Source of the DNA: an uncultured virus (IMG/VR IMGVR_UViG_3300032087_002549)
Lineage: Duplodnaviria > Heunggongvirae > Uroviricota > Caudoviricetes > Crassvirales
IMG/VR virus record: IMGVR_UViG_3300032087_002549
Length of the DNA stretch: 64,000 nt
Strand: one strand, 5' to 3'
The position numbers and the translations under genes were made by a program. Within the stretch, counting starts at the first letter, position 1; each line of letters starts with the position of its first letter. The notes under the pieces were generated by a model that worked only from the letters and a program-made list of their open reading frames with translations, did not search any database and was not told the origin of the DNA. Shown here in pieces: positions 7,101 through 63,744 of the stretch.

Positions 7101-8984
7101 ATAGTTGTCTGAGTTTAAATTACCATTATTATATCTTTTTTGTATTTCAGCTCTTATACTACCAAAAAATTCATTTGACACAGCATAGTTATTAGATATA
7201 TCAAATTTAGTAGAAAAGTTTCTTGCTGCTTGCCTTAACTCTATTATACTTTGTTTACCAATACCGCCTATACCAGGTAACATAGCACCAACTATATAAC
7301 CTCCAGCACCAGCTTGAAACAATTGATCAGCTTTTACATACCTATTATTTAAAAAAGTACCAGATTCATCGTTTTTATCACTCATAAACTGTGATAAACC
7401 TAATACTGTTTCTTGACCTACTTCAGTGCCAAGCTCAATTAAACCGCTAAAGTTCATGTTTTTACCTTGTTGAACAGCGCTTTTAGCAACTCTGTTATAA
7501 TGACCTTTTAATAAAGATCCAAAAACTTGCTTTACATCATCTCCAACACCCATAGCTTTACCAACACCTTTCATTACTCTACTAGCACCTATTCTTTCTA
7601 AATAACCAGCAGCAACTGCTCCAGCAGCTACATAAAACTCGTTTACGTTTTCTTCTTCTTCTTTTGCAAATTTAATATAGTCTTTAGCTGTAAGATCTTC
7701 AACTGGTATTTTATACTTATCAGACATTTGATTAGCTAGTATATCTCTTCTAGCTTGACCATACATTGTTGCTGATACCAAAGGTATACCAACATAAGGA
7801 ACAACCGCCATGCCCATATAAGGTAATGATTGACCTAATGTTCTAAAAGCCTCACCAAAACTAACTCCATCTGAAAAATCAGTTGGATTAAATAATTGCA
7901 AATCATCTTGTCTTTTTAAATAAGGTAAAAGTGTTTTTTCGAACTTTTCCGTAGCTTTTTTAATTTTCTCTTCTTGAAACTTAATGTTTTCAGCTACAGT
8001 ACCTGTTTGTTTTTCTATTTTTGGTTTATCAAATTCAGTTTCTTTTGGGACGATATTTGTTATCCAAATAGATTCATCTTCAGGGTTTAATTTTCCTAAT
8101 CTTTCTAGTTCCCTAGAAGCTTCTTGTATTCCTTTCTGCTGCATTTGCAACTCAACACCTGAAAAGCCTTGAGCAGCATTCATTGACCCTTGGTATATAC
8201 CTTCACCTAAATCACTTATTATAGGTATATCAACATCAATTGCTCTAAAAATAGCATCTTTGTTTCTACCTAGTTTTCTAGATACATCTGTACTATATTT
8301 ATTAGCAACACTCACATATGCTTGTAGTCGTTTTTGTACGTCTACATCGTCGTTAAAACCTGCGTACAACTCTTTATATTCTTCTTGAAACTTTTTATCT
8401 AGTTCTGCTAGATTAAATTCATTTTCAAAAGATAATTCTGATGTTGATGATTCTTTAGCTAATTTAGAATATTTATCTTTTAGCGCATCTATTTGTGGTT
8501 GGATTAAAGCTGTATACTGCTTGTTTTTAGCTTTTATAAAAGGATCATTAGCAATATACTGAGACTGTATGTTATTAAAAACGTCGTTTAGTACTTCGTC
8601 TGTATCTACTTGTCTTGCTTCTTCTTTTGTTTTACCTTTTAAATATTTATCTACTACTTTTTCATCTAATGTTTTAGAAAGCTCAGTGTAAAAATCTGAA
8701 GGTACGTCTTCTGTAATAGTATCAATAGTACCAAATTCATCTCCTCTAGGTACTTTTCTATCCTTTTTTACAGTTGTTGCTAGTGATGGATAATCCGATA
8801 AAGATATCTCCGAAGTTAAGCCCGTATCTTCTGGTGCTGTTATGTCCGGCGCCGCGTTCGCACCCACAGTCGTGGCACCTGTTATCTTTCCCAAATTAAC
8901 GTCGTATTCTTCTAATAGTTCATTAATTATTTCCTCATCGTAGCCTTTATCTACAAGAAGTTGTTTATATTCCTCTCTGTTCAT
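1116..8984 (-). CDS. Giant multidomain (polyvalent) internal virion/ejected protein with zincin HExxH and HAD-like domains
   Basis: 2622 aa. HEFLH...PDEYMA motif, HAD motifs DFDDT/ILTARP/FADD, and position after tail and ejection-type genes. Confidence 0.65.
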   Translation of the reverse strand: MNREEYKQLLVDKGYDEEIINELLEEYDVNLGKITGATTVGANAAPDITAPEDTGLTSEISLSDYPSLATTVKKDRKVPRGDEFGTIDTITEDVPSDFYTELSKTLDEKVVDKYLKGKTKEEARQVDTDEVLNDVFNNIQSQYIANDPFIKAKNKQYTALIQPQIDALKDKYSKLAKESSTSELSFENEFNLAELDKKFQEEYKELYAGFNDDVDVQKRLQAYVSVANKYSTDVSRKLGRNKDAIFRAIDVDIPIISDLGEGIYQGSMNAAQGFSGVELQMQQKGIQEASRELERLGKLNPEDESIWITNIVPKETEFDKPKIEKQTGTVAENIKFQEEKIKKATEKFEKTLLPYLKRQDDLQLFNPTDFSDGVSFGEAFRTLGQSLPYMGMAVVPYVGIPLVSATMYGQARRDILANQMSDKYKIPVEDLTAKDYIKFAKEEEENVNEFYVAAGAVAAGYLERIGASRVMKGVGKAMGVGDDVKQVFGSLLKGHYNRVAKSAVQQGKNMNFSGLIELGTEVGQETVLGLSQFMSDKNDESGTFLNNRYVKADQLFQAGAGGYIVGAMLPGIGGIGKQSIIELRQAARNFSTKFDISNNYAVSNEFFGSIRAEIQKRYNNGNLNSDNYKAEMDYLESLEAAGRTFRLNPDLKAKDKNKIFNNMLKKDDLVRRINTEQKRDVPNDVLIEKLKKQAALLNIDTENILGIDFVEKASKQLMAAGVINKDTTVEGTTTEELIAKGYDKKEIGDGVFDPETNTLFVNRDSDKKGIVTTAQHEFLHPLTKAMIASGKIDAMTIKNMVNKYDTNGYVQSRIKDEPQTYTPAYMEKNPDEYMALFGEGVLEGEIDIENNPNTALNFFKKLFNTGGIKGEIDFGTTEGLKNFVVEYAKSNKKGKLTDKLTSSLKGVTPAKGGDIALSSRLQPRLESEFNGNARSMLNQTLSSTPDGRVVDGMTVPFTESDFGQEIGGVVENQTQRLFDKIPQDLTRVLNEDRFKARQMFKDQMVMEAAAILQNEWDPSKQRSQSLDSWLTQLMVQRSQSLAKRMGIQDTFASETTGQEVDTSEETVQVDTEFVNIREGAFQIETGSPQYEKIINKVKDIITRKKLVKRSGKEVVLDFNNKNLRKDLNEIFQKEIRKILISEGLIPKNVDDYKAWLGKNKKRIWSKLSQDVINKRFKDLTTKVVDRQTRKQSKLNLNIKNLNAGNALFVKDNIDTDAFVKYFEGRARKESLGQALAIELANDATLQVMGDPDVLLKRDEKGLNKGTMQNESAVQAMAKVVQRPVDLVFSKRAAKLSQSTDPEAVKDYNEIRKILISKDFIDDLKMYASEPAGSKFNGIHRILQHHLRKAKDEGKITTVKIGELTAIGNEFVPKFIKTNFAHNLDVKNIAEKTANYLLANHDLNRDVISIKYGGLDGNNGFDKSDINLINNARLGYKDFKDAVEQGFIMDGDTKIPLPLDPANLSIVINHSWQPDSIGGFILTKDPAGIRIKQSEVKPHPKGSRTSTFRSINDFNKNVGEFKVTQNKGVTLGKKDPYLKDTNQNINPSDYNGIRTEGLKYKQILKDTIETYRILNQYGYITNKQMRVHIEALFQDTGGLGRKAAELTLIPTVRKDVMSKLLGIDPNDVFVFEHMIPANVVANLAYEYIISGSAKSKKNLDAELKNYKGAIIPKAIDDIIKDRGQQSNMGVRHEFGKDPLDTRYKEVMSFMELHDLENGGTVGSNNFVYSKRSKEALIDKAIEMARRTDAPKKGITVMDFDDTIAKTKSMIGVTTKDGKFIKIDATQFALQSAALEEQGAIFDFSEFNEVKKGQKGPLFDVIKKRVEKFGNKDVFILTARPQAAAPAIKKFLSDNGVDIPLENITGLENGTPEAKADFMIAKAADGYNDFYFADDAIKNVKAVKDVLDIVDVKSDIQQAREDVVYSKRGKKSQRFNEILEETKGIRAETTYSDAAGKARGDGTGNWNIFIEPSAEDFGGLLLQFAGKGKQGEAHKEFFEETLLKPITRGIDAINRAKQQIRNDYEALKQEMPSIHKMLRNDTGYNKFTYDTAIRVYLWNKNGMEIPGLSKTDVKKLTAIVKGDPDMEAFANKISAISKLDEGYVKPDDIWLTSSIGLDLTAINQLGKRSDYLKEFVENKNEIFSPENLNKVQAVYGTDFREALEDLIYRIEKGSNRTFGQNKAVNKWMDWINNATGTIMFLNTRSAVMQTISFTNFINYSDNNIFAAGKAFANQTQFWEDFGMIFNSDFLKQRRGGMTQDVNWQEISEQVKGHKDPVRKAIAVLLQKGFVFTQMADSFAIALGGSTMYRNRTEAYMKNKNMSREAAEEQAFLDFQVIAETTQQSGRPDLISKQQAGPLGRVILAFQNVTMQYNRFSKKEILDFAKGRRVKDPVTGGYHTLAKSRMIQLSRVTYYVGMQNLVFNAMQNAIFALAFDDDEKDEKAKEKYNNIANGMADSVLRGMGIKGAIVAMLKNTIMEFKKQSDKPSNRADYGYVLVEAFNISPPIGSKARKTYSALQTYKFNKKEMMQMGLDIDNPAIEASSNLISAATNVPTDRVYYKIQSTREVLNNEHEAWQRMAVALGWRTWQVGIEDDEPSKKPKPDPRLKEKNKVRSRQLTNPRKIK

Positions 8985-11815: not shown

Positions 11816-13150
11816 TTAGACAGTAACTTCTCCATTAACTGAAAATAATTCAGCCTTTGAATCATTGGAACTTTCATTAGGTTCCCAGTACTGCATTGTT
11901 ATGTTTGAAAAATATCCTTTTAAACCAGATGTTTGAAAATGGCTGTTGTCTTGATAAAAATCAACCGCCTTATTTCTTAATTCACTGTAGTAAAAACCTT
12001 CTTTTTTAATAAAGCCTACAGTTTCACCTGTTCCTATTGTTGTACCTTCTTTAGGTATCTCATATGCTGTGTTAAGATCATCGTAACTATTTGATGCTCC
12101 GTAAACAGCGTAACCACCTGTTGAAAAATTAGTCATATTCCAACCAGTAGTTCCCTCGTAATCAAGGGTTAAAAATGTTTTGACTGATGATGGTTCCATG
12201 TTAAATAGAAGTTTAACATATGATGGATCGTTAAATGATGCGTCATAAAAATTACATCTTGCAACCGTTTCGTCATGTTGTCTGTATAAGTTTGATAAGT
12301 GATATGTGTAAAACTCATTTTTTAAACTTACACCGTGTGTTGCTTTGTATGTATAAAAACTAACCCAGCCACTAGCTCTCTCGTCAAATGCCAATGTGCC
12401 ATAAGTTGTTACGTCGGCTGTTGCTGATGCGCTAGATGCTATTACACCTCCATCAACACCTGTTCCTTCTAATGTTATAACATATTGTTTCTTTTGTTCA
12501 TCAAATGCTCCATATATAGTATCACACACTTTTAGGTTATCTTTAAACCAGTCTTTCATACCAGCGTCTGATATAGGAGTTATACCATCTGTTGATAATC
12601 TACATACAACGCCTCTTTGCTTATCTGCAAAGTATTTTCTGTTACCAAAGTATGCAAAACTTTCAGGGTTTTTGCCAATACCATATTTACCAGAATAAGG
12701 AGTTATTTGTCCTATAACGTTAGCGCCTGACGCTGTTATAGCTTGTCCTTCAGCTGTAAATATAGCGTCTTTATCTATTAAAGCTCTATTAACTTTATTC
12801 TCTTGAAATATATTTAAATTAGTGTCTTCAGCGTGTAGTTTTTGTACACTACCATTATTTATATCAACAGCTCTTGTTATTGATTGACCTGATGGAAATT
12901 GATTCAATTCATTAACAGTAGTTCTAGCGTTGAATATACCACTGTATGTTAAAGCGTTTTTTCTTACCCTACTTTTATATTCTTCGTCTGTTATATGAGC
13001 TCTTGCACCAATATCCATTTGAATACCATTGTATTCACCTTTTATTCTATTTTCTTCAATGTGATATACGCCAGGCGCTTCTGCTGTACCGCTTCTACCA
13101 CCTTGTATTATTATGGCGTTTGAAAATGCTAATTCTATTACTGCTCCCAT
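11816..13150 (-). CDS. Tail nozzle/stabilisation protein, C-terminal-like part
   Basis: 444 aa. GIGKNPESFA...YFADKQRG.VCRLS.DGIT.IS..GM motif resembles podovirus tail stabilisation beta-propeller proteins. Confidence 0.55.
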   Translation of the reverse strand: MGAVIELAFSNAIIIQGGRSGTAEAPGVYHIEENRIKGEYNGIQMDIGARAHITDEEYKSRVRKNALTYSGIFNARTTVNELNQFPSGQSITRAVDINNGSVQKLHAEDTNLNIFQENKVNRALIDKDAIFTAEGQAITASGANVIGQITPYSGKYGIGKNPESFAYFGNRKYFADKQRGVVCRLSTDGITPISDAGMKDWFKDNLKVCDTIYGAFDEQKKQYVITLEGTGVDGGVIASSASATADVTTYGTLAFDERASGWVSFYTYKATHGVSLKNEFYTYHLSNLYRQHDETVARCNFYDASFNDPSYVKLLFNMEPSSVKTFLTLDYEGTTGWNMTNFSTGGYAVYGASNSYDDLNTAYEIPKEGTTIGTGETVGFIKKEGFYYSELRNKAVDFYQDNSHFQTSGLKGYFSNITMQYWEPNESSNDSKAELFSVNGEVTV

Positions 13151-28049: not shown

Positions 28050-28572
28050 ATTTAATTTCAATAAAAATGTTTGGAACTCTGTATAATCTTTCTTTGTTTA
28101 TAACAAACTCATATTCAGCTGCTGAATTATAACCTACTAGTTCACCTTTTTTAAAACTACCGTCAGAATATTTAACAATACCTATTTGATCAGCTTCTGA
28201 TCCATCTTTTTTTTGAATAGGTTTTATAAATGAATAACCAGGTAAGGCTTTCCATTCTACTGTTTTTTTGTAAGCAAATACTTGATTGATACTAACCTTG
28301 TATAAATCTTTTTTTATATAACTGCTAGAATTACGCTCTTTGCCTCTAGCATCATGCCATCTTCTAAAAACATTGTGATGTATAATTATTTCATCACCTT
28401 CTTTAATTGGTGTATTAAACTCCGATGGTACACCTACAACAACCGCTTCGCGACTTATGTATTGATGGTTAAATATCTCAGAGTTTAATATAAGTTTTTT
28501 ATCACCAATTTTTTTGATATTGTTATATCTTTCTGTTTTTGGTTTTATTAAAAAATAAAACGTGCCTTTCAT
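27994..28572 (-). CDS. GroES-like (co-chaperonin fold) protein
   Basis: FLIKP...AVVVGVP...IKEGDEIIIH, with a second similar half FIKP...GIVKY...KGELVGY. Confidence 0.5.
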   Translation of the reverse strand: MKGTFYFLIKPKTERYNNIKKIGDKKLILNSEIFNHQYISREAVVVGVPSEFNTPIKEGDEIIIHHNVFRRWHDARGKERNSSSYIKKDLYKVSINQVFAYKKTVEWKALPGYSFIKPIQKKDGSEADQIGIVKYSDGSFKKGELVGYNSAAEYEFVINKERLYRVPNIFIEIKYEYRGKEKEYNPSWLQSS

Positions 28573-40557: not shown

Positions 40558-40815
40558 CTATTCAACGATCACTACATCTCCGTGCTTTATTACATAGAAG
40601 TAGCTACTGTTAAATTCGATTCCGTGTCCAGCGTTTTTATCATACCATACTATATCATTTTCTTTGATACCGTTGATCTGATCACCAACACTGACCACTT
40701 TGCCTTTTAAAAACCTAACATCATCAGCTTGTGACTCAGTTAGTATCAAACCATTATTAGGTTTAGGCTTTTCTTTTATTTTATCTACTACTAAAAAACT
40801 ATTGATCGCTTTCAT
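40558..40815 (-). CDS. groES: Co-chaperonin GroES
   Basis: 85 aa. GLIL...GKVVSVG...IKENDIVWY, adjacent to GroEL. Confidence 0.8.
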   Translation of the reverse strand: MKAINSFLVVDKIKEKPKPNNGLILTESQADDVRFLKGKVVSVGDQINGIKENDIVWYDKNAGHGIEFNSSYFYVIKHGDVVIVE

Positions 40816-42364
40816 TTATTCTCATATTAGAAATTACACAATCAGCTGATATAATAGTCGTAACTACTGATACAGCATTTTTTAGCGCCGATTTTGTAAC
40901 CAAAACCGGATCGATGATTCCAGACTTAATCATATTAACCTTTTTACCGGTTACTACGTTTATACCTTGACCTTTAACTAGTTTACTAGGTTTTTCAATA
41001 CCCGCGTTATCTAGTATTATATTAAAAGGTGTTTGTATTGCCTGTAATAATAATTCTTCTCCAAGATTCTTAGGTTTTATATTGTTACTAGCATTAAGTA
41101 ACGCTATACCACCTCCAGGTACGATGCCTTCTTGTAAAGCTGCTTTGGTAGCATATATCGCATCTTCGATCCTGTCCTTCTTCTCTTTTAGCTCTACCTT
41201 ACTATCAGCTCCGACAAAAACTATGCCGACTGATCCATTTAGTATTGCTAATCTCTCTTGTTGTTTCTTTTTTAGAAAAGGATTTTTAGTTTCCTTACCT
41301 ATTATATCTTTTACTTGTTTTATACGATCTTTAAGGTTTTTACCAGATTTATTTACAGTAAACACTGTATGTTTGTTATCTGTCACAGTTTTAACTGCTT
41401 CACCAAGACAATCTACGTCAATAAGATCAAAATCATCACCAAGCTCTTCATTAATAACTTTAGCACCTGTTACTATGGCTAAGTCTTCAGTACTGTCCTG
41501 TTTAGTAGGACCAAAGCCAGGTAAGTCAATAAAGTTTATTTTAATGTTACCTTTTACTTTATTTGCTAATAATGCTGCTTTAGGTTGTTGTTCTAACTCA
41601 CCAACTATAAGCAAAGATCTATTTTTCTTTATACAATGTTCTAATATAGGTTGTATTTTACGAATATTAGGTATTGGCGACGATGTGATTAATACTAGAG
41701 GATTATCTAATTCGGCAACACCTCTATCTTTATCGGTGACAAGGTGCGGAGATTTTAATGGAGACTTTATCTGTATACCATCAACAACATCAACATATGT
41801 TTCTCCTGTTGGTGATTCTTCCATTAGTACTACACCATCTTTGCCTACTTTATTATAAGCTGATGATATAAAGGTACCAAGCTCTTTGTCGTTATTAGTA
41901 GATATTGTAGCTACATGCTCAAGTAAGTCATCATCAACTGATATACTTTCTTTATCTAAATACTTAATAACTTTATCTGTAGCTGTTTTAATACCATCTT
42001 TTATCTCTCTAACATTGCCAGCCTCTCTAGCATTAGCAATCTTTAAAAGTGAATGAGCGAGAACGGTAGCCGTAGTGGTACCATCCCCTGCTTCTTTCAC
42101 AGTATTACTAGCCGCTTCCTTTATAAGTGTTGCACCTATATTTTCAACCGGGTCATATAAGACAACAGATTCAGCTACTGTTACACCGTCTTTTGTTATC
42201 ACCGGTTTTCCTAATGCATCTTCATAGATGACACATTTTCCTGAAGCGCCTAAAGTAGATTTAACTGCATTGTTCAGTTTATCTACGCCTTCAATAATTC
42301 TTGCTTTAGCCTCATCGCTAAAGTTCAGATCTTTTACAATCTGACTAGGTTGATTATATTCCAT
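40799..42364 (-). CDS. groEL: Chaperonin GroEL
   Basis: ITKDGVTVA, AGDGTTTATVLA, EGIVPGGG and GIIDP motifs. Lacks the GGM tail. Confidence 0.95.
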   Translation of the reverse strand: MEYNQPSQIVKDLNFSDEAKARIIEGVDKLNNAVKSTLGASGKCVIYEDALGKPVITKDGVTVAESVVLYDPVENIGATLIKEAASNTVKEAGDGTTTATVLAHSLLKIANAREAGNVREIKDGIKTATDKVIKYLDKESISVDDDLLEHVATISTNNDKELGTFISSAYNKVGKDGVVLMEESPTGETYVDVVDGIQIKSPLKSPHLVTDKDRGVAELDNPLVLITSSPIPNIRKIQPILEHCIKKNRSLLIVGELEQQPKAALLANKVKGNIKINFIDLPGFGPTKQDSTEDLAIVTGAKVINEELGDDFDLIDVDCLGEAVKTVTDNKHTVFTVNKSGKNLKDRIKQVKDIIGKETKNPFLKKKQQERLAILNGSVGIVFVGADSKVELKEKKDRIEDAIYATKAALQEGIVPGGGIALLNASNNIKPKNLGEELLLQAIQTPFNIILDNAGIEKPSKLVKGQGINVVTGKKVNMIKSGIIDPVLVTKSALKNAVSVVTTIISADCVISNMRINESDQ

Positions 42365-44419: not shown

Positions 44420-44651
44420 ATACTACGAAGATTTAACACTAGAGCAAATGTTTGAGCAATATGATCACACTCATATGATGTCAGACGACCATAGAGCGTA
44501 TCAAAATGGCCAACGCCAACGCGAGATATGGATAAAAAAGATGCAAGATGAGCATGGTGGCTGGACAAAAGAACTAGTCGATATGTATAACAAGCATGCG
44601 CCTGCAGGTAGGTTTCAACTTGATTGGCAATTTATAAAAATGGCGGGGTAG
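44412..44651 (+). CDS. Early hypothetical protein
   Basis: 79 aa, MSDDHRAY motif. The 3' end overlaps the tRNA 5' end. Confidence 0.55.
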   Translation: MPKYYEDLTLEQMFEQYDHTHMMSDDHRAYQNGQRQREIWIKKMQDEHGGWTKELVDMYNKHAPAGRFQLDWQFIKMAG

Positions 44652-44713
44652 AGCAGTGGTAGCTCGTGAGGCTCATAACCTCAAGGTCGGTGGTTCGACT
44701 CCACCTCCCGCAA
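44642..44713 (+). tRNA. tRNA-Met(CAT), initiator-like
   Basis: Cloverleaf: GGCGGGG/TCCCGCA acceptor with 1:72 mismatch, GAGC/GCTC D stem (A11-U24), TGAGG-CTCATAA-CCTCA anticodon arm, GGTGG-TTCGACT-CCACC T arm. CCA not encoded. Confidence 0.9.
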
Positions 44714-44728
44714 CTAAATTTAATAACT

Positions 44729-45398: not shown

Positions 45399-45617
45399 AT
45401 GGCAAAAATAAAACAAATGGACATAGTAGCAGAAGAAATAGCTACAGATATACTAGAAGAAATATACAAACATAGTGATTGGCAAATCGGCCAGTTCTTA
45501 CCAGAATCTTGTGAGGGCGATGAATACAATGATGCTCATAGTTACCTCGTAAAGCTGGTCGCTCGCCACATCGCTATTAAAACAGATGTAATAACTAACC
45601 AATACTACGATGAGTGA
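45399..45617 (+). CDS. Hypothetical protein
   Basis: 72-aa acidic ORF. Confidence 0.5.
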   Translation: MAKIKQMDIVAEEIATDILEEIYKHSDWQIGQFLPESCEGDEYNDAHSYLVKLVARHIAIKTDVITNQYYDE

Positions 45618-45852
45618 TTCAATAAAAGCATGGTATGACATGCAAGACGAAGAAAAATTAAAGACTATCGAAGAGTCTAATGAAAGAAGATATTTATGGG
45701 TACTAGACTTTGAAGAAGCCAGAGTATTCATGTATAACATTAACAGAACAGATTTAGAACATGAGCATTATGAAGATATAATGAAACTAAAAGGTCATAA
45801 TCCAAATAATTGCGAGTGGATGATTTGCAAGTCAGATCAAATCTATAAATAG
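45610..45852 (+). CDS. Hypothetical protein
   Basis: 80 aa, overlaps the previous ORF. Confidence 0.5.
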   Translation: MSDSIKAWYDMQDEEKLKTIEESNERRYLWVLDFEEARVFMYNINRTDLEHEHYEDIMKLKGHNPNNCEWMICKSDQIYK

Positions 45853-45924
45853 GGAGTGATAAGGTGAGCGACAACCGCGGCGAAAGCAAAGGTGTCAACG
45901 GCGGTTCGATTCCGCCCACTTCCA
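45852..45924 (+). ncRNA. tmRNA tRNA-like-domain-only RNA (Ala identity, no tag ORF)
   Basis: Acceptor GGGAGTG/CACTTCC with G3-U70 and A73, T arm GGCGG-TTCGATT-CCGCC, unpaired D-like segment ATAAGGTGAGC, GACAACC/GGTGTC helix capped by GC-GAAA-GC. Confidence 0.7.
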
Positions 45925-45929
45925 CTAAA

Positions 45930-46008
45930 TACCGGCCTAACAGTAAATCGACGCCTTGGCTTCCTTAAGGTATCAGTTGTACAAAGCCAGTCGTAGTGAC
46001 AGCCGGTA
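45930..46008 (+). ncRNA. Structured RNA candidate
   Basis: Nested stems TACCGGC/GCCGGTA, CGAC/GTCG and TGGCTT/AAGCCA in a GC-richer intergenic segment. Confidence 0.45.
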
Positions 46009-46014
46009 AGATAT

Positions 46015-46046
46015 TACAATACAAATACGAATGTGTTTGGATAATA
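46015..46046 (+). promoter_or_regulatory. Promoter-like motif, copy 6
   Basis: TACA-ataca-AATACGA-atgtgtttg-GATAATA upstream of ORF 46072. Confidence 0.75.
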
Positions 46047-46071
46047 CAATAAACAATTAAATATAATCACA

Positions 46072-46314
46072 ATGAGCAAAATTAAATCAGTTTACGACTT
46101 GCTAAAACCTTCAGTTAAATCTGAGTTGCAAGCTAGCGCTAGAAAATACTCCAGTGCTAAACTACTTAAGTATACTCTTATGTCTAAGACCCACTGGTCA
46201 GACCTTACAATGAGAGATATATCAGAGTTACTAACTTATTCTAACCTAACAGGTTACAAGCTATCAGCTTACGACTTTATGTATGGTGACAATATAATAG
46301 ATGATAAACAATGA
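46072..46314 (+). CDS. Hypothetical protein
   Basis: 80-aa ORF. Confidence 0.55.
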   Translation: MSKIKSVYDLLKPSVKSELQASARKYSSAKLLKYTLMSKTHWSDLTMRDISELLTYSNLTGYKLSAYDFMYGDNIIDDKQ

Positions 46315-46787
46315 AAAATGTTTTAACACCTGATATAGTCAGAGAAGAATTAGAAAAAGACGGCATTATATTCGGCTTACGAGATGAAGATGCTGCAGAA
46401 AAATTACTAGAGTATTTTGAAAATGACTTTGGTAGCACTATAGATTACGAATCATCATGGGCCAAAGGTCATGAAGGTTTACTAATATACACACAAAGTA
46501 CCGCTGATTCATATGATTTATATGTGTGCACTAATACACACGGTAATGATATATATTGGGACAGTGATGTATTCTATTACGAAGACCATAACACGTTTTC
46601 TGAAAGAGCTATTGAACAGTTAGCTTCTGGTTCAGATGTGTGGGTTGATCCTTCTATATGGGATGAGATGGAGTATGAATTTAATGCTCATTGCACTGAT
46701 GCATATGAAGATTATTACAGTGAATTATTTGATGATAAAAAAGAACAATTATTAGAATCAGGAAAATATGATAGATATGAAGACTAA
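46311..46787 (+). CDS. Highly acidic hypothetical protein
   Basis: 158 aa, Asp/Glu/Tyr-rich. Confidence 0.6.
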   Translation: MKNVLTPDIVREELEKDGIIFGLRDEDAAEKLLEYFENDFGSTIDYESSWAKGHEGLLIYTQSTADSYDLYVCTNTHGNDIYWDSDVFYYEDHNTFSERAIEQLASGSDVWVDPSIWDEMEYEFNAHCTDAYEDYYSELFDDKKEQLLESGKYDRYED

Positions 46788-58667: not shown

Positions 58668-60389
58668 ATGTGGAGCAATAGATGGAAAAAAGGCGAAGAC
58701 TACCCAGAGTGGGCAGACGCCGATGTATATAAAAAAACAATAACAGGAGGATATTTACATAATGGAGAAACACCAAGAGAAGCGTACAGAAGAGTTGCTA
58801 GAACGGTTGCGCAAAGACTACAGAAACCAGAAATGGAAGAGACGTTTTTTACGTACATATGGAAAGGTTGGTTATGTCTTGCGTCACCTGTACTTAGCAA
58901 TACTGGTACTGACCGTGGCTTGCCTATTAGTTGCTTTGGTATCGATGTTGCTGATAGCATTTACGACATAGGTACTAAAAACCTAGAAATGATGCTACTA
59001 GCTAAGCATGGCGGTGGTGTTGGTATTGGTCTAAACATGATAAGACCTTCTGGTGCAAATATTACAATGAATGGTACATCAGATGGTGTTGTACCTTTCT
59101 GTAAAATATATGACTCTACAATACTAGCTACCAACCAAGGAGCTGTAAGAAGAGGTGCTGCATCAGTTAACTTAAATATAGATCATAAAGACTGGGAAGA
59201 CTGGTTAGAAATAAGAGAGCCTAAAGGTGATGTTAATAGACAATCATTAAACCTACATCAATGTACTATAATTGGTGATAAGTTTATGCGTAAGCTTAGA
59301 GATGGTGATAAAGTTGCAAGACGTAAATGGGGTAAATTGCTACAAAAGCGTAAAGCAACAGGTGAACCTTATATAATGTACAAGGGTAATATTAATAAAA
59401 ATAACCCAGCTGCATACAAAGATAATGCTCTGAAAGTATTTATGACAAATATTTGTTCAGAGATAGTATTACACACGGATGAAAACCATAGCTTCGTTTG
59501 CTGTTTATCTAGTTTAAACTTAGCTAAATACCACGAATGGAAAGACTCTAATTTAATATATGATAGCATATGGTTTTTAGACGGTGTATTAGAAGAGTTT
59601 ATACAGAAAGCAAAAAATAGAAGAGGATTTGAAAACGCTGTAAGATCTGCAGAAAAAGGTAGAGCACTAGGTTTAGGTGTTTTAGGTTGGCATACATATC
59701 TACAACAAAAAGGATTTCCTTTTGAAGGATTATTAGCACAATATGAGACAAGAAGAATATTTTCACAAATTAAAATTGAAAGCGAAAGAGCTAGTATGGC
59801 TTTGGCAGAGCAGTATGGAGAACCTCTTTGGTGTGTTGGAACTGGTTTTCGTAATACTCATTTACGTGCTATTGCTCCTACTGTTAGCAATAGTAAGCTT
59901 GCTGGTAATATTTCACCGGGTATTGAACCTTGGGCTGCTAACGTCTTTACAGACCAAAGCGCAAAAGGAACTTTCATCCGAAAAAATCCAACTTTAATAA
60001 AAGAATTAGAAAAACATAAATTAAACAATAAAAAAACATGGGACCAAATACTGAGAGACGGAGGTTCAATACAAGGTATCAAACAATTAGAGAACGTTAC
60101 TATAGGAGAACACAACGTACCTATAAAAGAAGTTTACAAAACTTTTAAAGAAATAAATCAATTAGAGTTAGTTAATCAAGCTGGTATCAGACAGCAATAT
60201 ATAGATCAGTCTGTAAGTTTGAATTTAGCTTTCCCTTCACAAGCAGATCCTAAATGGATTAATAAAGTACATTTAGAAGCTTGGAAAAAAGGTATTAAAA
60301 CTCTATATTATATGAGAACCGAGTCTGTATTAAGAGGTGATATTGCATCTCAAGCTATGGACCCTAACTGTTTAAGTTGCGATGGATAA
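58668..60389 (+). CDS. nrdA: Ribonucleotide reductase class I alpha subunit (no ATP cone)
   Basis: ISCF, GGGVG, TNICSEI, AIAPT, IDQSVSLN, KTLYY and C-terminal CLSCDG. Confidence 0.92.
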   Translation: MWSNRWKKGEDYPEWADADVYKKTITGGYLHNGETPREAYRRVARTVAQRLQKPEMEETFFTYIWKGWLCLASPVLSNTGTDRGLPISCFGIDVADSIYDIGTKNLEMMLLAKHGGGVGIGLNMIRPSGANITMNGTSDGVVPFCKIYDSTILATNQGAVRRGAASVNLNIDHKDWEDWLEIREPKGDVNRQSLNLHQCTIIGDKFMRKLRDGDKVARRKWGKLLQKRKATGEPYIMYKGNINKNNPAAYKDNALKVFMTNICSEIVLHTDENHSFVCCLSSLNLAKYHEWKDSNLIYDSIWFLDGVLEEFIQKAKNRRGFENAVRSAEKGRALGLGVLGWHTYLQQKGFPFEGLLAQYETRRIFSQIKIESERASMALAEQYGEPLWCVGTGFRNTHLRAIAPTVSNSKLAGNISPGIEPWAANVFTDQSAKGTFIRKNPTLIKELEKHKLNNKKTWDQILRDGGSIQGIKQLENVTIGEHNVPIKEVYKTFKEINQLELVNQAGIRQQYIDQSVSLNLAFPSQADPKWINKVHLEAWKKGIKTLYYMRTESVLRGDIASQAMDPNCLSCDG

Positions 60390-61209
60390 TATAACAATAA
60401 AACAAATACTAGATCCAGTCGATCCTAAGAGGTTCTGGCTGAACTATTGGGGTAAAAAACATTTAGTTATTAGAAGAAATACATTTAAAAATTTATTTAA
60501 ATGGCATGATTTTACTAATTTATTAAATGGTTACCCTAGAAATTTAAACCACTTACAGATACTAGATTATGATGGTAAAGGTAATAAGTGGTGTTTAGAT
60601 AAAGTAAATAAAGGTAAATTAAAATTACCTATGTTAAAGAAAAAAGAAGTATTAGACCTGTGGAGGTCTGGTAAAACATTTGTTCTTTCAATGGCAGAAT
60701 ATACTAAACAAGACTTTGTTGAAATATGCGATGAGCTTGAAAGATATTTTGAAAGAGGTCAAGTTAATATATATTGCTCAAGTAAAAAAGATGCTGTTGG
60801 TTTTCCAGCGCATTGCGATAGTACAGAAAACTTTTTGTTTCATACAGAGGGTAAAGTTAAATGGACTATATATGATAACTCTGCACCTGAAAGAAAACCT
60901 GGAAAGGTTATTGATGAGTTTGTTTTAGAAGCTGGAGATTTATTGTACATACCACAGTACAGATACCATAAAGCCGAATCACTTACGCCTAGAATATCTA
61001 TAAGTATTCATTTTCCAAACAAACAAAATCAATCATTAAAAAAGTTTCAGATAACTAAAAAAGGTGTGAAAAGAGATGGTTGGTATAACTGGATGCCCGA
61101 AGATTTATATTATGATGCTAAAGGTAATAGCACAAGAGATGTACCTAGAAAATTTAGGATGGGCGGAACACGATGGAAAGAAACGTATTTTAATAATTTA
61201 AAAAAATGA
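60382..61209 (+). CDS. JmjC/cupin 2OG-Fe(II) oxygenase (RoxA/NO66-like)
   Basis: FW..YW.KK.L, GFPAHCD, EGKVKW, LEAGDLLYIP...H. Confidence 0.8.
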   Translation: MDNITIKQILDPVDPKRFWLNYWGKKHLVIRRNTFKNLFKWHDFTNLLNGYPRNLNHLQILDYDGKGNKWCLDKVNKGKLKLPMLKKKEVLDLWRSGKTFVLSMAEYTKQDFVEICDELERYFERGQVNIYCSSKKDAVGFPAHCDSTENFLFHTEGKVKWTIYDNSAPERKPGKVIDEFVLEAGDLLYIPQYRYHKAESLTPRISISIHFPNKQNQSLKKFQITKKGVKRDGWYNWMPEDLYYDAKGNSTRDVPRKFRMGGTRWKETYFNNLKK

Positions 61210-61406
61210 ATAGAGTAGCAATAGTAGAAGCTCCTCACAATATTAGAAACGCAACGTTAATGCCTAATTTGAATAAGGCGTTTTGCGCTAAATGGGTTAT
61301 TGACAATGTAGAAAAGATAGAGGATATTGAAACAAAGGATTATGATTGTTTAATATTGTTTGGTGATAAAGAAAAATTACAAAAAATAGTAAATGAAAGC
61401 AGGTAA
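61206..61406 (+). CDS. Hypothetical protein
   Basis: 66 aa, coupled to neighbours. Confidence 0.5.
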   Translation: MNRVAIVEAPHNIRNATLMPNLNKAFCAKWVIDNVEKIEDIETKDYDCLILFGDKEKLQKIVNESR

Positions 61407-61737
61407 AATATGGGGTAAAACAGAAATGATACATAAAAATGGTGTCATGGAGTTTCACCGAATAGAATTTAATAAAGGATTTAAATGCTCTGAACATGAG
61501 CATAGATTTAAATGGAACGGATTTTTTGTAGAATCCGGTAAAATGCTTGTCAGGGTATGGCAAGAAGATCAAGGTCTTGTTGATGAAACAATACTTGAAG
61601 CAGGTGATTTTACTATGGTAAAACCTGGTAAGATACATCAGTTTGAAGGTGTTGAAGATGGTGTTGCTTTTGAATTATATTGGGCTGAGTTTAATCACGA
61701 TGATATAATCAGAAGAACAGCTGGTACTAAGACATGA
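61393..61737 (+). CDS. Cupin-fold (sugar isomerase-like) protein
   Basis: CSEHEH..KWNGFFVESG...LEAGD...PG.IHQF. Confidence 0.75.
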   Translation: MKAGKIWGKTEMIHKNGVMEFHRIEFNKGFKCSEHEHRFKWNGFFVESGKMLVRVWQEDQGLVDETILEAGDFTMVKPGKIHQFEGVEDGVAFELYWAEFNHDDIIRRTAGTKT

Positions 61738-62372
61738 AAAACATAGCGGTAGTTATACCAGCAAGACTTAATAGTACTAGACTCAAACACAAAATGTTAA
61801 TGAAGTTCGATGATGAACCTCTAATACGTCTTGTGTTTGATAAAGTACGTATGATGGGATATGATACATTTGTAGCAACAGACAGCAAGCGTATTGCTAA
61901 ACTGTTTCCTATGAAATGGTGTATACAAACAGGTAAAGCCGATAACGGTACACATAGATTATCTAAACGAGTTGTATTAGATTTAGTAAATGGATATGAT
62001 TATGTATTAAACATACAAGGTGATATGCTTGATATAAATCTAGATACAATTAAACCTATAATAAAAGCATTAAACAAAAAAGATGTAGTATGTTTAACTG
62101 CATATACTAAAGGCGCTAAATCAGATGATGTTAAAGTTATACATCAAAATGGTAAAGCAATGTGGTTTACAAGATCTGACATAGGTTATGGTGATAGACA
62201 CTTAGGTATATATGCTTATAAACCTTATTTGTTAAAAGCATATAGAGCTATGAAAGATAAATATAAATCAGAAAACTTAGAACAAAACAAAATATTAGGT
62301 TTATACGATATTGATGTAGTTGAAACTACATATAATGGCGTAGAAATTAACACTTATAATGATATAAAATGA
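61734..62372 (+). CDS. kdsB: CMP-Kdo synthetase (Kdo cytidylyltransferase)
   Basis: VIPARLNSTRL..K, VATD, GTHR, NIQGD, HLGIYAY, LEQ. Confidence 0.8.
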   Translation: MKNIAVVIPARLNSTRLKHKMLMKFDDEPLIRLVFDKVRMMGYDTFVATDSKRIAKLFPMKWCIQTGKADNGTHRLSKRVVLDLVNGYDYVLNIQGDMLDINLDTIKPIIKALNKKDVVCLTAYTKGAKSDDVKVIHQNGKAMWFTRSDIGYGDRHLGIYAYKPYLLKAYRAMKDKYKSENLEQNKILGLYDIDVVETTYNGVEINTYNDIK

Positions 62373-62995
62373 AATATGCAGAAAAATACAAAGCACTACA
62401 CGAAGGTGCTGAATATAAAATAAAATATCCAGACGGCGAATGGAGAGTAAAAAAAGGTAACTATGGTAATGGTGCAGGTTTTAAAACTGTACTAAAACCT
62501 GTTAAAAAGTGGGTTGATGAAAACCCTGGCACAATGTTATTAGATTATGGTTGTGGATCTGGTATGGTTTGGGATAATAAAATGGCTATTTACAACGGTG
62601 AAAAATATACTAAACCAGGTAAACGTGTTCCTGAAAAATATGATGCCATGACACTTACACAGTTTCTTGGTGAAAACTTACAGGGTTTTTACAGGTACGA
62701 TCCTTTTCACCCTAAGTATTATATGAGACCACCAGATATTAAATTTGATTTAACAGTTGTTAATGATGTTATAGAGCACGTGCCATTAGAAGAGCTGCCT
62801 GCATTGTTAAGAGATATAGCTGATTTAACGTGTACTTGTGGCGCAATAGTAATGTCAATACCACAAAGCCCTTCACACGCGCATTTTATGGACGGTGAAA
62901 ATATGCACTGCACGTTAATGCCAAGAGGTGAGTGGAAAAAATTATTAAGAAAATATATACCAAAACATAAAATAATAATAAATTTTACTCCATGA
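62369..62995 (+). CDS. Class I SAM-dependent methyltransferase
   Basis: LLDYGCGSG, YDP, FDL...DVIEHVP, GENMHCT. Confidence 0.8.
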   Translation: MKYAEKYKALHEGAEYKIKYPDGEWRVKKGNYGNGAGFKTVLKPVKKWVDENPGTMLLDYGCGSGMVWDNKMAIYNGEKYTKPGKRVPEKYDAMTLTQFLGENLQGFYRYDPFHPKYYMRPPDIKFDLTVVNDVIEHVPLEELPALLRDIADLTCTCGAIVMSIPQSPSHAHFMDGENMHCTLMPRGEWKKLLRKYIPKHKIIINFTP

Positions 62996-63744
62996 AAAAA
63001 CCGATATTAATAGCTGGTCCGTGTAGTCTAGAAGGTAGAATACAAGCTCATGAAATATCTAACAAATGTCAAGAGCTAGCGGACAAATATGGCTTTGACT
63101 ATTATTTCAAAGCTTCATTTGACAAGGCTAATAGAACGTCTGTAAACTCTAAACGAGGTATTGGTATAGACAAAGCTATAGATATATTTGCTGAGTTGAA
63201 AGATTTAGATAGTTGTAAGATTACAACAGATATACATGAGCCTTGGCAAGCAGATAGGTTAGCTGACGTTGTAGACATTATACAAATACCAGCTTATTTA
63301 TGTAGACAAACTGATTTATTAGTTGCTGCAGGTAATACGTTTAGAAATATTAATATTAAAAAAGGACAGTTTATAAATGGTAGTAATATGGTGCATGCTG
63401 TTAATAAAGTTAAAAGTACAGGTAATAATAATATTATGCTAACTGAAAGAGGTAGTATGTTTGGTATGGGTGATCTTGTTGTAGATTTTAGACAGATCGT
63501 AGATATGAAAGAGTTAGGTGTACCAGTTATAATGGACTGCACCCACTCAACACAAAGACCTAATTCAGGTAGCACAACGGCTGGTCAACCACGCTATGCT
63601 ATACACATTGCAAAAGCTGCGAAAGCAGTTGGCGTTGATGGTTACTTTTTTGAAGTACACGAAAATCCTAGCGCTGCATGGAGTGACGGGTCTAATATGA
63701 TTAAGTTAGATAAATTTGAAGAAATATTAAAACAATTAGTATGA
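62992..63744 (+). CDS. kdsA: Kdo-8-phosphate synthase
   Basis: IAGPCSLE, KASFDKANRTS, QIPAYLCRQTDLL, KKGQF, TERG, DCTHSTQ. Confidence 0.92.
   Translation: MKKPILIAGPCSLEGRIQAHEISNKCQELADKYGFDYYFKASFDKANRTSVNSKRGIGIDKAIDIFAELKDLDSCKITTDIHEPWQADRLADVVDIIQIPAYLCRQTDLLVAAGNTFRNINIKKGQFINGSNMVHAVNKVKSTGNNNIMLTERGSMFGMGDLVVDFRQIVDMKELGVPVIMDCTHSTQRPNSGSTTAGQPRYAIHIAKAAKAVGVDGYFFEVHENPSAAWSDGSNMIKLDKFEEILKQLV

What the first reader, a model, noticed from the sequence alone, without database searches (positions are those of the whole stretch)
45852..45924. Mini-tmRNA: alanine-identity tRNA-like domain with the mRNA domain missing
Seen: 73 nt with a 7-bp acceptor stem carrying G3-U70, discriminator A, a canonical T arm, no D stem (an A..GG...CGAC segment like tmRNA 5' ends), a 3-nt AAC linker before the T arm, and a short helix closed by a GAAA tetraloop in place of an anticodon arm. 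It is followed by CTAAAT, exactly as the tRNA-Met is. Known: G3-U70 specifies AlaRS, and these are tmRNA TLD hallmarks for SmpB binding. Inference: a phage RNA that could be alanylated and bind SmpB/EF-Tu, rescuing ribosomes without tagging, inhibiting host trans-translation, or acting as a decoy for tRNA-targeting defences.
Basis: partly seen in the sequence, partly recalled or inferred. Interest (0 to 1): 0.85.

Follow-up and report, generated by a model that had tools for sequence, protein, structure and literature searches.

The report
Phage tag-less mini-tmRNA gene
This uncultured marine phage carries a real 73-base gene for only the alanine-accepting, tRNA-like end of the bacterial ribosome-rescue RNA (tmRNA), a type already known from mycobacteriophage DS6A that probably interferes with the host's rescue-and-tagging system.

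Summary
Window 45852-45924 (+) has a 7-bp acceptor stem with G3.U70, discriminator A, a canonical T arm, a stemless A..GG..CGAC D-loop analogue, an AAC linker, and a GAAA-capped hairpin where tmRNA carries its mRNA domain and pseudoknots.

Rfam's tmRNA model aligns end to end at 27.4 bits, E 4.5e-10, which is below its gathering score of 47. tRNA and Y-RNA models do not fit.

It belongs to a large family:
- My script listed 104 distinct minis of 67-185 nt in uncultured, mostly marine phage contigs.
- 47 of 71 relatives anchored on a ligase gene carry one, one copy in each of 3 complete relatives.
- The 3' consensus also retrieves full-length bacterial tmRNAs.

A model built from the family hits the published "TLD only" tmRNA of mycobacteriophage DS6A full length. 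The kind is therefore known, and this scan has noted it before on other DNA.

The most likely function is occupying host SmpB (and AlaRS/EF-Tu) to suppress ssrA tagging. This is inferred; neither expression nor charging is shown.

The new detail is the hairpin cap. It is a conserved 20-nt module, and in relatives such modules are swapped, nested, and shared with neighbouring unknown structured RNAs.

The parts
45852..45924 (+). whole mini-tmRNA (TLD-only) gene, 73 nt
   Evidence: RF00023 27.4 bits, E 4.5e-10; the only match of model R1 in the 64-kb window, 64 bits; the window sequence was in the seed alignment
45852..45858 (+). acceptor stem, 5' strand GGGAGUG (G3 at 45854)
   Evidence: pair 4:69 covaries in the family (CG 20, GC 9, AU 7, GU 1 of 37)
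45859..45869 (+). stemless D-loop analogue AUAAGGUGAGC (A8, G12G13)
   Evidence: aligns to the tmRNA 5' consensus GGGGguGAucuGGaUUCG
45870..45896 (+). H2/P2-like hairpin in place of the mRNA-like domain and pseudoknots; GAAA tetraloop
   Evidence: fold; a closing helix of at least 4 bp in 102 of 104 family members against 51% of shuffled caps
45874..45893 (+). conserved cap module ACCGCGGCGAAAGCAAAGGU ('module A')
   Evidence: the pattern recurs in 10 distinct contexts: 8 in G3.U70 TLDs (directly on the helix or nested), 1 in another tRNA-like scaffold (L038), 1 in a stand-alone hairpin (L192)
45897..45899 (+). AAC linker before the T arm
   Evidence: the AC is also seen in the full-length tmRNAs listed
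45900..45916 (+). T arm GGCGG-UUCGAUU-CCGCC
   Evidence: pairs 2 and 3 of the arm covary in the family
45917..45924 (+). acceptor stem 3' strand CACUUCC (U70 at 45921) and discriminator A73; CCA is not encoded
   Evidence: discriminator A in 48 of 49 distinct elements; trailer CTA in 40 of 49
45925..45930 (+). trailer CTAAAT, the same as after the tRNA-Met
45930..46008 (+). neighbouring conserved structured RNA ('module X'), 5 nt downstream; lies beside the TLD or inside its cap in relatives
   Evidence: 25 predicted pairs, 8 with compensatory changes; no Rfam match
44642..44714 (+). tRNA-Met (CAU) of the same early-region RNA set
45610..45852 (+). upstream 80-aa ORF; the G of its TAG stop codon is G1 of the RNA
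   Evidence: no family match
46038..46067 (+). promoter-like site in front of the next ORF (46072-46314)
   Evidence: 10 of 12 consensus positions; similar AT-rich motif at the same place in relatives

Best explanation
It is a genuine phage gene for a tag-less, TLD-only tmRNA of the DS6A type.

Shown:
- The sequence has the tmRNA tRNA-like domain: acceptor with G3.U70 and A73, a T arm, a stemless D-loop analogue, and an AC linker.
- The H2 helix is closed after 27 nt, so there is no resume codon, no tag frame and no pseudoknots.
- It is conserved as a single syntenic copy in a large group of uncultured phages whose nearest cultured relatives infect Flavobacteriia.

Inferred:
- It is transcribed with the early genes and cut out by host RNase P and a 3' tRNA-processing enzyme, as its tRNA-Met-like trailer suggests.
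- It then receives CCA and binds host SmpB through the D-loop/T-loop elbow. It is probably also charged by AlaRS.
- Because it cannot supply a template, it competes with host tmRNA for SmpB, and for stalled ribosomes if charged. This suppresses ssrA tagging and the linked proteolysis and mRNA decay during infection.

The conserved cap module has an additional, unknown role.
For: Identity:
- RF00023 aligns end to end at E 4.5e-10. YrlA scores only 10.7 bits, and tRNA scores lower within the clan.
- The family's 28-nt 3' consensus found 24 places in bacterial genomes. ARAGORN calls full-length tmRNAs in 11 of those 24, and they show the same 5' and 3' ends.
- Model R1 hits the DS6A TLD-only RNA full length at 30.6 bits, E 4.4e-6.

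Conservation:
- 47 of 71 ligase-anchored loci have a full-length R1 hit at E <= 0.05, all on the gene strand.
- There is one copy in each of 3 of 3 complete relatives.
- The acceptor and T arm covary, and the H2 closing helix is kept with 55 different sequences.

Use of the host partner:
- No SmpB family was found in 66 window ORFs.
- None was found in 5 relatives' records, 3 of them complete.

G3.U70:
- It is present in 39 of 49 distinct elements of the set that was not selected on the acceptor (40 after correcting one mis-parse).
- 54 of 58 TLD-like elements found with a T-arm-only pattern carry one of the two family acceptors, both G3.U70.

Literature (passages read):
- SmpB binds the TLD elbow, and H2 mimics a long variable arm (PMC3968760).
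Against: - No expression, processing, charging or SmpB binding was shown.
- The more distant syntenic relatives lack G3.U70 (L022, L057, L063, L064, L067, L068), so alanylation is not universally required.
- In some relatives the slot holds a 47-nt acceptor/T-arm 'top half' without the D-loop analogue or H2 (L040, L031). SmpB would not be expected to bind this in the same way.
- The cap is not free filler. Module A and other caps are conserved and shared with other scaffolds, which a pure SmpB sponge does not explain.
- The two Bacteroidetes MAG tmRNAs I fetched have different acceptor stems. The phage RNA is therefore not a copy of those, and the true host is unknown.
- The inhibition result comes from E. 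coli and from a paper I could not read (Mao et al. 2009).
Confidence: 0.42

Rival explanations
1. tRNA-like chassis or punctuation. The acceptor/T-arm unit mainly tells host RNase P, the 3' tRNA-trimming enzyme and the CCA-adding enzyme where to cut and how to stabilise. This releases and protects the RNA module it carries (the cap) and the structured RNAs and mRNAs beside it. The resemblance to tmRNA is ancestry rather than function.
For: - Cap modules are swapped, nested, and shared with stand-alone hairpins and other scaffolds.
- Module X lies directly after the TLD (window, L007, L034), directly before it (L018, L188, L193), or inside its cap (L019).
- 41-47-nt top-half units without alanine identity occur in the same clusters.
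- The trailer is shared with the tRNA-Met.
- In many relatives the next ORF starts 10-25 nt after the RNA.
- G3.U70 is lost in distant relatives.
Against: - Processing needs only the acceptor and T arm. Yet the tmRNA-specific D-loop analogue, AC linker and H2 geometry are kept in 102 of 104 members.
- Ordinary tRNA genes are available for punctuation.
- TLD-only forms recur in unrelated phages, according to DS6A and this scan's earlier notes.
Confidence: 0.25
2. Tag-less rescue. The charged RNA, with host SmpB, enters stalled ribosomes and accepts the nascent chain. It may add alanines without a template. This frees or marks stalled complexes in a way that helps the phage, rather than blocking rescue.
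For: - G3.U70 and A73 are kept in close relatives.
- CDS-less tmRNAs persist in mitochondria and plastids alongside SmpB (PMC11915505).
- In this window, an RNase P cut at G1 would remove the last base of the upstream ORF's stop codon and make a non-stop mRNA.
Against: - No stop codon is supplied, so release needs another factor.
- The stop-codon overlap is not conserved in relatives.
- Non-chargeable relatives exist.
- The E. coli result in print is inhibition.
Confidence: 0.15
3. Decoy for a host defence that senses or cuts tRNA or tmRNA, or for another protein that binds the cap.
For: - The caps are hypervariable and exchangeable on a constant scaffold, a pattern seen in arms races.
- The gene is in the early region.
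Against: - There is no anticodon loop to be cut.
- No known defence targets the TLD (recalled, not searched).
- Module X has no host look-alike: 1 marginal hit in 201 genomes of one class.
Confidence: 0.06
4. Non-functional remnant: a decayed tRNA or tmRNA fragment, or an attP copy of a host tmRNA 3' end.
For: - It falls below the Rfam gathering score, and ARAGORN does not call it.
Against: - Both halves of the domain are intact and base-paired.
- It is conserved with covariation in over 100 variants.
- No integrase family was found among 66 window ORFs.
- An attP copy would hold only the 3' part.
Confidence: 0.02

Closest known systems
'TLD only' (CDS-less) tmRNA of Mycobacterium phage DS6A (JN698994, about 28478-28557; PMC4131195 Table 2; PMC11915505)
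   Same: - It is phage-encoded and about 80 nt.
- It has a 7-bp acceptor with G3.U70, A73, a stemless D-loop analogue with GG, a T arm, and a short closed H2 hairpin.
- It has no tag frame.
- My family model matches it full length.
   Different: - The phage lineage and host phylum are unrelated (actinophage, GC-rich).
- The cap sequence differs.
- The marine family has exchangeable, conserved cap modules and sits in a cluster of other structured RNAs.
Bacterial tmRNA (SsrA, Rfam RF00023)
   Same: The tRNA-like domain matches at both ends, including G3.U70, A73, the AC linker and the T loop.
   Different: It lacks the mRNA-like domain, resume codon, tag frame, stop codon and all four pseudoknots. 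It scores 27.4 bits against a cut-off of 47. It cannot perform tagging.
CDS-less organellar tmRNAs (jakobid mitochondria, RF02544; about 65-bp plastid genes of Mallomonadaceae; PMC11915505, passage read)
   Same: They are reduced to the tRNA-like part with no tag reading frame, and are presumed to work with SmpB.
   Different: They are organellar and usually permuted in mitochondria, and arose by reductive evolution of the resident gene. Here the gene is an accessory one in a virus that relies on the host's SmpB.
Laboratory TLD fragments (T. thermophilus 5' 25 + UUCG + 3' 34 nt, PDB 2CZJ; TLD of Shimizu and Ueda 2006; via PMC3929946)
   Same: The design is the same: the two ends of tmRNA joined by a tetraloop. 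Such fragments bind SmpB and, once charged, act on ribosomes in vitro.
   Different: This one is natural, has a longer H2 with a conserved internal-loop motif, and has not been tested.
tRNA-like processing elements
   Same: A tRNA-shaped unit without an anticodon that directs RNase P and RNase Z cuts next to other RNAs.
   Different: Those lack tmRNA-specific features and alanine identity. Whether this RNA serves that purpose is untested.

Membership tests
tmRNA tRNA-like domain (TLD) | 7-bp acceptor stem with G3.U70 and discriminator A73 (AlaRS identity; PMC3968760) | tested here: met
   GGGAGUG/CACUUCC plus A
tmRNA tRNA-like domain (TLD) | T arm with a tRNA-type 7-nt loop | tested here: met
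   GGCGG-UUCGAUU-CCGCC aligns to the model
tmRNA tRNA-like domain (TLD) | reduced D loop without a stem, with GG for the T-loop contact | tested here: met
   AUAAGGUGAGC. The tertiary contact itself is not testable here.
tmRNA tRNA-like domain (TLD) | helix H2/P2 leaving between the D analogue and an AC linker before the T arm | tested here: met
Full-length tmRNA (RF00023) | mRNA-like domain with resume codon, tag frame and stop codon | tested here: not met
   Only 27 nt lie between the H2 strands. ARAGORN finds no tmRNA.
Full-length tmRNA (RF00023) | pseudoknots PK1-PK4 | tested here: not met
   326 model positions are replaced by 31 nt
Full-length tmRNA (RF00023) | Rfam gathering score of 47 bits | tested here: not met
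   27.4 bits; no match at gathering
TLD-only phage tmRNA (DS6A type) | phage-borne TLD with H2 closed by a short hairpin and no tag frame | tested here: met
   DS6A is matched by family model R1 at 30.6 bits, E 4.4e-6.
TLD-only phage tmRNA (DS6A type) | binds SmpB and inhibits trans-translation | not testable with these tools
   Known only from print for a similar molecule in E. coli (PMC4131195 citing Mao et al. 2009, which I could not read).
TLD-only phage tmRNA (DS6A type) | expressed, processed at G1 and A73, CCA added | tested here: inconclusive
   RNA-library contigs of 4 runs do not cover it. Contigs cannot show ends.
Canonical tRNA (RF00005) | D stem and anticodon arm | tested here: not met
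   In clan competition the tmRNA model wins.
Bacterial Y RNA / YrlA (RF02553) | match to the family model (Ro-binding stem plus tRNA-like module) | tested here: not met
   10.7 bits against 69, E 9.6
Mitochondrial tmRNA (RF02544) | match to the family model | tested here: inconclusive
   Not listed at E <= 10, but lower-scoring overlapping matches of the clan are hidden by the tool.

The most novel reading that the evidence does not exclude
The tmRNA-like domain is a chassis that displays exchangeable RNA modules. In this phage group, a pool of conserved hairpin modules is moved by recombination between three places: the TLD cap, nested positions inside other caps, other tRNA-like scaffolds, and free-standing hairpins in one early RNA cluster. 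The pool includes the window's 20-nt ACC-N-CGGCG-N-AAGCAAAGGU motif and the 79-nt module X. The TLD would then give processing, stability, and possibly SmpB- or ribosome-directed delivery to cargo RNAs that act on host proteins. That would be a modular phage non-coding-RNA system not described so far.
Probability: 0.2. Interest if true: 0.8.

Novelty: new member of a known kind. Interest (0 to 1): 0.45.

Why it matters
- Print holds one phage example of a TLD-only tmRNA (DS6A) and one functional result for a similar molecule.
- This window shows the type is the rule in a large group of uncultured marine phages, with over 100 sequence variants. That natural mutagenesis set shows which parts are constrained (acceptor, T arm, D analogue, H2 base) and which are free.
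- If the RNA titrates SmpB, phages of Bacteroidota-type hosts routinely switch off ssrA tagging early in infection. That would be a testable host-takeover step.
- The swapped cap modules and the unknown neighbouring RNAs are the part a specialist would not expect.

Tried and rejected
- **Expression.** I laid four RNA-library runs (contigs only) on 45400-46400. None covers 45852-45924. Contigs of three runs cover module X (45926/45932 to 46002/46015), but with flanks unlike the window, so they come from relatives. A low-agreement loose end after 46002 looks like a T arm. DNA can be present in such libraries and contigs cannot show ends, so nothing follows from this.
- **Cultured relatives.** Megablast and blastn of the region against 50,697 phage records found nothing relevant. 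Model R1 found no full-length match in 5 of the 87 records that share the terminase (MW202828, elemoE 6-9C, phi19:3, phi38:1, Calle_3). It found only T-arm pieces in 2 of them.
- **Whole genome.** It is not held.
- **Host mimicry of module X.** 1 marginal hit in 201 genomes of one class.
- **Phage SmpB.** None found.
- **Loose geometry as evidence.** Too common by chance.
- **Promoter motif search.** My spacing was wrong and it gave nothing.
- **Neighbouring 80-aa ORF.** No informative relatives.
- **Scaffolds D and E of relatives.** No Rfam match.
- **Mao et al. 2009.** Not held, so I cite it only through papers that quote it.
- **Literature beyond DS6A.** Searches for a described marine or metagenomic TLD-only family found only PMC4131195 and PMC11915505. 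Subscription papers are not covered.
- **Readings rejected.** I rejected the decayed-tRNA, Y-RNA, attP-remnant and two-piece (permuted) tmRNA readings. For the last, both acceptor strands lie in normal order within 73 nt.

Full report
**What is there.** Window 45852-45924 (+) reads GGGAGUG / AUAAGGUGAGC / GACAACC-GCG-GC-GAAA-GC-AAA-GGUGUC / AAC / GGCGG-UUCGAUU-CCGCC / CACUUCC / A. The minimum-energy fold forms the 7-bp acceptor stem (G3.U70), the 5-bp T arm and the central hairpin. It leaves 11 nt unpaired where a tRNA has its D arm (-28 kcal/mol, z -2.27). The six bases after it, CTAAAT, also follow the tRNA-Met at 44642-44713. The G of the upstream ORF's TAG stop codon (45610-45852) is G1 of the RNA. 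The region is the start of the plus-strand early and DNA-metabolism block.

**Is it more than chance?** A loose tRNA-top-half geometry is not rare in this AT-rich DNA: 57 of 200 surrogates had a hit. The full set of tmRNA-type features occurs once in the window and in 0 of 1000 surrogates. ARAGORN and Rfam at gathering score see only the tRNA-Met. When given the element alone, Rfam's tmRNA model aligns from its first to its last position at 27.4 bits, E 4.5e-10, replacing 326 internal model positions by 31 nt. YrlA scores 10.7 bits, and tRNA is beaten within the clan (the earlier wider search is).

**Relatives.**
- The phage is uncultured. Its terminase is nearest to a spring-water Caudoviricetes record (63%) and to Flavobacterium, Cellulophaga, Tenacibaculum and Maribacter phages (32-45%).
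- The ligase gene 2.4 kb downstream gave 71 related IMG/VR loci.
- The exact 3' 22-mer gave 20 loci.
- My script listed 115 distinct elements, 104 of them minis of 67-185 nt.
- All minis share GGGNGUGA-N2-3-GG-N3-4, a helix, AAC, a T arm, CACNUCC and A, while the middle differs in sequence and length.

**Structure in the family.** In a 37-sequence alignment all 12 acceptor and T-arm pairs are paired. This is by construction of my filter, but pair 4:69 shows CG 20, GC 9, AU 7, GU 1, and two T-arm pairs covary. The helix that closes the middle is at least 4 bp in 102 of 104 members and at least 5 bp in 82 of 104. Shuffled middles give 51% and 23.5%. The helix uses 55 different 8-mers before the T arm.

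**Conservation.** A covariance model (R1) finds a full-length match at E <= 0.05 in 47 of the 71 ligase loci and once in the window, all on the ligase strand. Of the 24 loci without one, 10 hold less than 2.5 kb upstream. There is one copy in each of 3 complete relatives.

**Is it tmRNA-derived?**
- The same 28-nt pattern found 24 places in 185,579 bacterial and archaeal species genomes. ARAGORN calls full-length tmRNAs with tags ending in AA in 11 of those loci.
- Their ends, GGGGGUGA..GG.UUCGAC and GAACG.GGGUUCGA.UCCC.CCACCUCCA, line up with the phage RNA.
- In whole-genome searches RF00023 scores such minis at 37-40 bits, against 94-174 bits for resident tmRNAs.

**What is known.**
- Hudson, Lau and Williams list 'Mycobacterium phage DS6A (TLD only)'. 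They state that a similar molecule, chargeable or not, strongly inhibits tmRNA, perhaps by titrating SmpB (PMC4131195, passages).
- The 2025 tmRNA database paper repeats this and adds about 65-bp CDS-less plastid genes and tag-less mitochondrial tmRNA (PMC11915505, passages).
- I fetched the DS6A locus, and R1 matches it full length at 30.6 bits, E 4.4e-6.
- Reviews state that SmpB binds the TLD elbow, that H2 mimics a long variable arm, and that G3.U70 plus A73 are the AlaRS keys (PMC3968760). They also state that a TLD fragment with SmpB supports template-free polyalanine synthesis in vitro (PMC3929946).
- This scan has earlier notes on the same kind: 168 notes in at least 134 genomes. Two of them are on phages that share words with this window's neighbourhood.
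- My searches found no description of a marine or metagenomic family.

**Alanine identity.**
- In the set not selected on the acceptor (54 R1 hits, 49 distinct), pair 3:70 is G.U in 39 (40 after correcting L025), A-U in 5 and U-A in 5. The discriminator is A in 48 of 49.
- The exceptions are the more distant syntenic elements (L022, L057, L063, L064, L067; also L068 with G-C) and small top-half units.
- With a pattern that fixes only the T arm, 54 of 58 TLD-like elements carry GGGCGUG/CACGUCC or GGGCGCG/CGCGUCC. The other hits are ordinary tRNAs of unrelated phages.
- The identity is therefore kept within the close family, but it is not universal.

**The cap is not filler.**
- The window's ACCGCGGCGAAAGCAAAGGU recurs, with two variable positions, in 10 distinct contexts. 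These include both chassis subfamilies, nested positions, another tRNA-like scaffold and a free hairpin.
- Other caps are nested in one another. For example, the 79-nt L017 form is expanded to 138 nt (L074) and 185 nt (L053). ARAGORN calls the last a tmRNA with an unlikely tag.
- Caps also reappear outside the TLD.
- Module X (45930-46008) is 85% conserved, with a covarying closing stem. It lies after, before or inside the TLD in relatives.
- In L040 the slot holds only a 47-nt acceptor/T-arm unit.

**Mechanism.** No phage SmpB was found, so any SmpB used is the host's. I consider the following readings:
- Competition with host tmRNA for SmpB: 0.42.
- A processing and display chassis: 0.25.
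- Tag-less rescue: 0.15.
- A defence decoy: 0.06.
- A non-functional remnant: 0.02.

That it is a real TLD-only tmRNA-type gene I put at about 0.9. Expression was not shown.

**Verdict.** It is a new member of a known, little-studied kind. The modular caps are the open and more novel question.

Noticed in passing
window 45930-46008 (+): A conserved structured RNA ('module X') lies 5 nt after the mini-tmRNA. Its core is 85% identical across 11 copies, its closing stem covaries (8 of 25 pairs have compensatory changes), and it has an 8-nt palindromic loop (CCTTAAGG here, CAAGCTTG in L019). It has no Rfam match. It is covered by RNA-library contigs of 3 runs, with flanks unlike the window.
   Followed up: partly
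L012:3789-3905; L014:3873-4020; L007 and L034 after about 3700: A second unknown scaffold follows the TLD in relatives. It runs GGGUAAAACACGAAGGACGG ... CCUCAGAAAGCGUGGGUAUGUGCACAAUACCACCC and has a variable insert that can hold the same module as some TLD caps. It has no Rfam match at E <= 1.
   Followed up: partly
L044:3984-4083 and many loci: A third unknown scaffold of about 95 nt lies directly after the TLD, closed by AGAGAGAUG/CAUCUCUCU. It has no Rfam match at E <= 1.
   Followed up: partly
L040:3682-3728; L031:3838-3884; L007:3650-3699; L009:1695-1735: There are 41-50-nt 'top-half' units: an acceptor stem plus T arm joined by a short connector such as CUACGGUACUAAAGU. Some have G3.U70 and some do not. 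They sit in the same RNA clusters and sometimes in the TLD's slot.
   Followed up: partly
L020:3479-3576; L052:1390-1477; L102; L178: Caps are flanked by a direct repeat, GACAGUAUCU twice, around different inserts. This looks more like a duplicated insertion site or a two-part binding site than a helix.
   Followed up: no
window 45850-45852: The TAG stop codon of the upstream ORF shares its G with G1 of the RNA. An RNase P cut there would leave that mRNA without a stop codon. The overlap is not conserved in relatives.
   Followed up: partly
L233:369-456 and 526-628: Two mini-tmRNA genes with different caps lie in tandem, 70 nt apart, on a 56-kb contig binned with a Bacteroidetes MAG.
   Followed up: no
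window 40558-42364 (-): The phage encodes GroES (Cpn10) and GroEL (Cpn60) homologues side by side.
   Followed up: no
window 61734-63744 (+) and 60382-61737 (+): Sugar-pathway genes are present: a cytidylyltransferase (CTP_transf_3), a methyltransferase and a DAHP/KDO8P-synthase-family gene. They lie beside JmjC and cupin genes.
   Followed up: no
window 11816-13150 (-) and 1116-8984 (-): A virion-module protein matches the crAss-phage muzzle C-terminal domain (E 1.4e-6). Next to it is a 2622-aa ORF with no family match.
   Followed up: no
window 46012-46071 and the same place in L019, L020, L025, L054: A conserved AT-rich motif (AAAUACGA ... GGAUAAUA) lies between the RNA cluster and the next ORF. 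It is probably a phage promoter.
   Followed up: no
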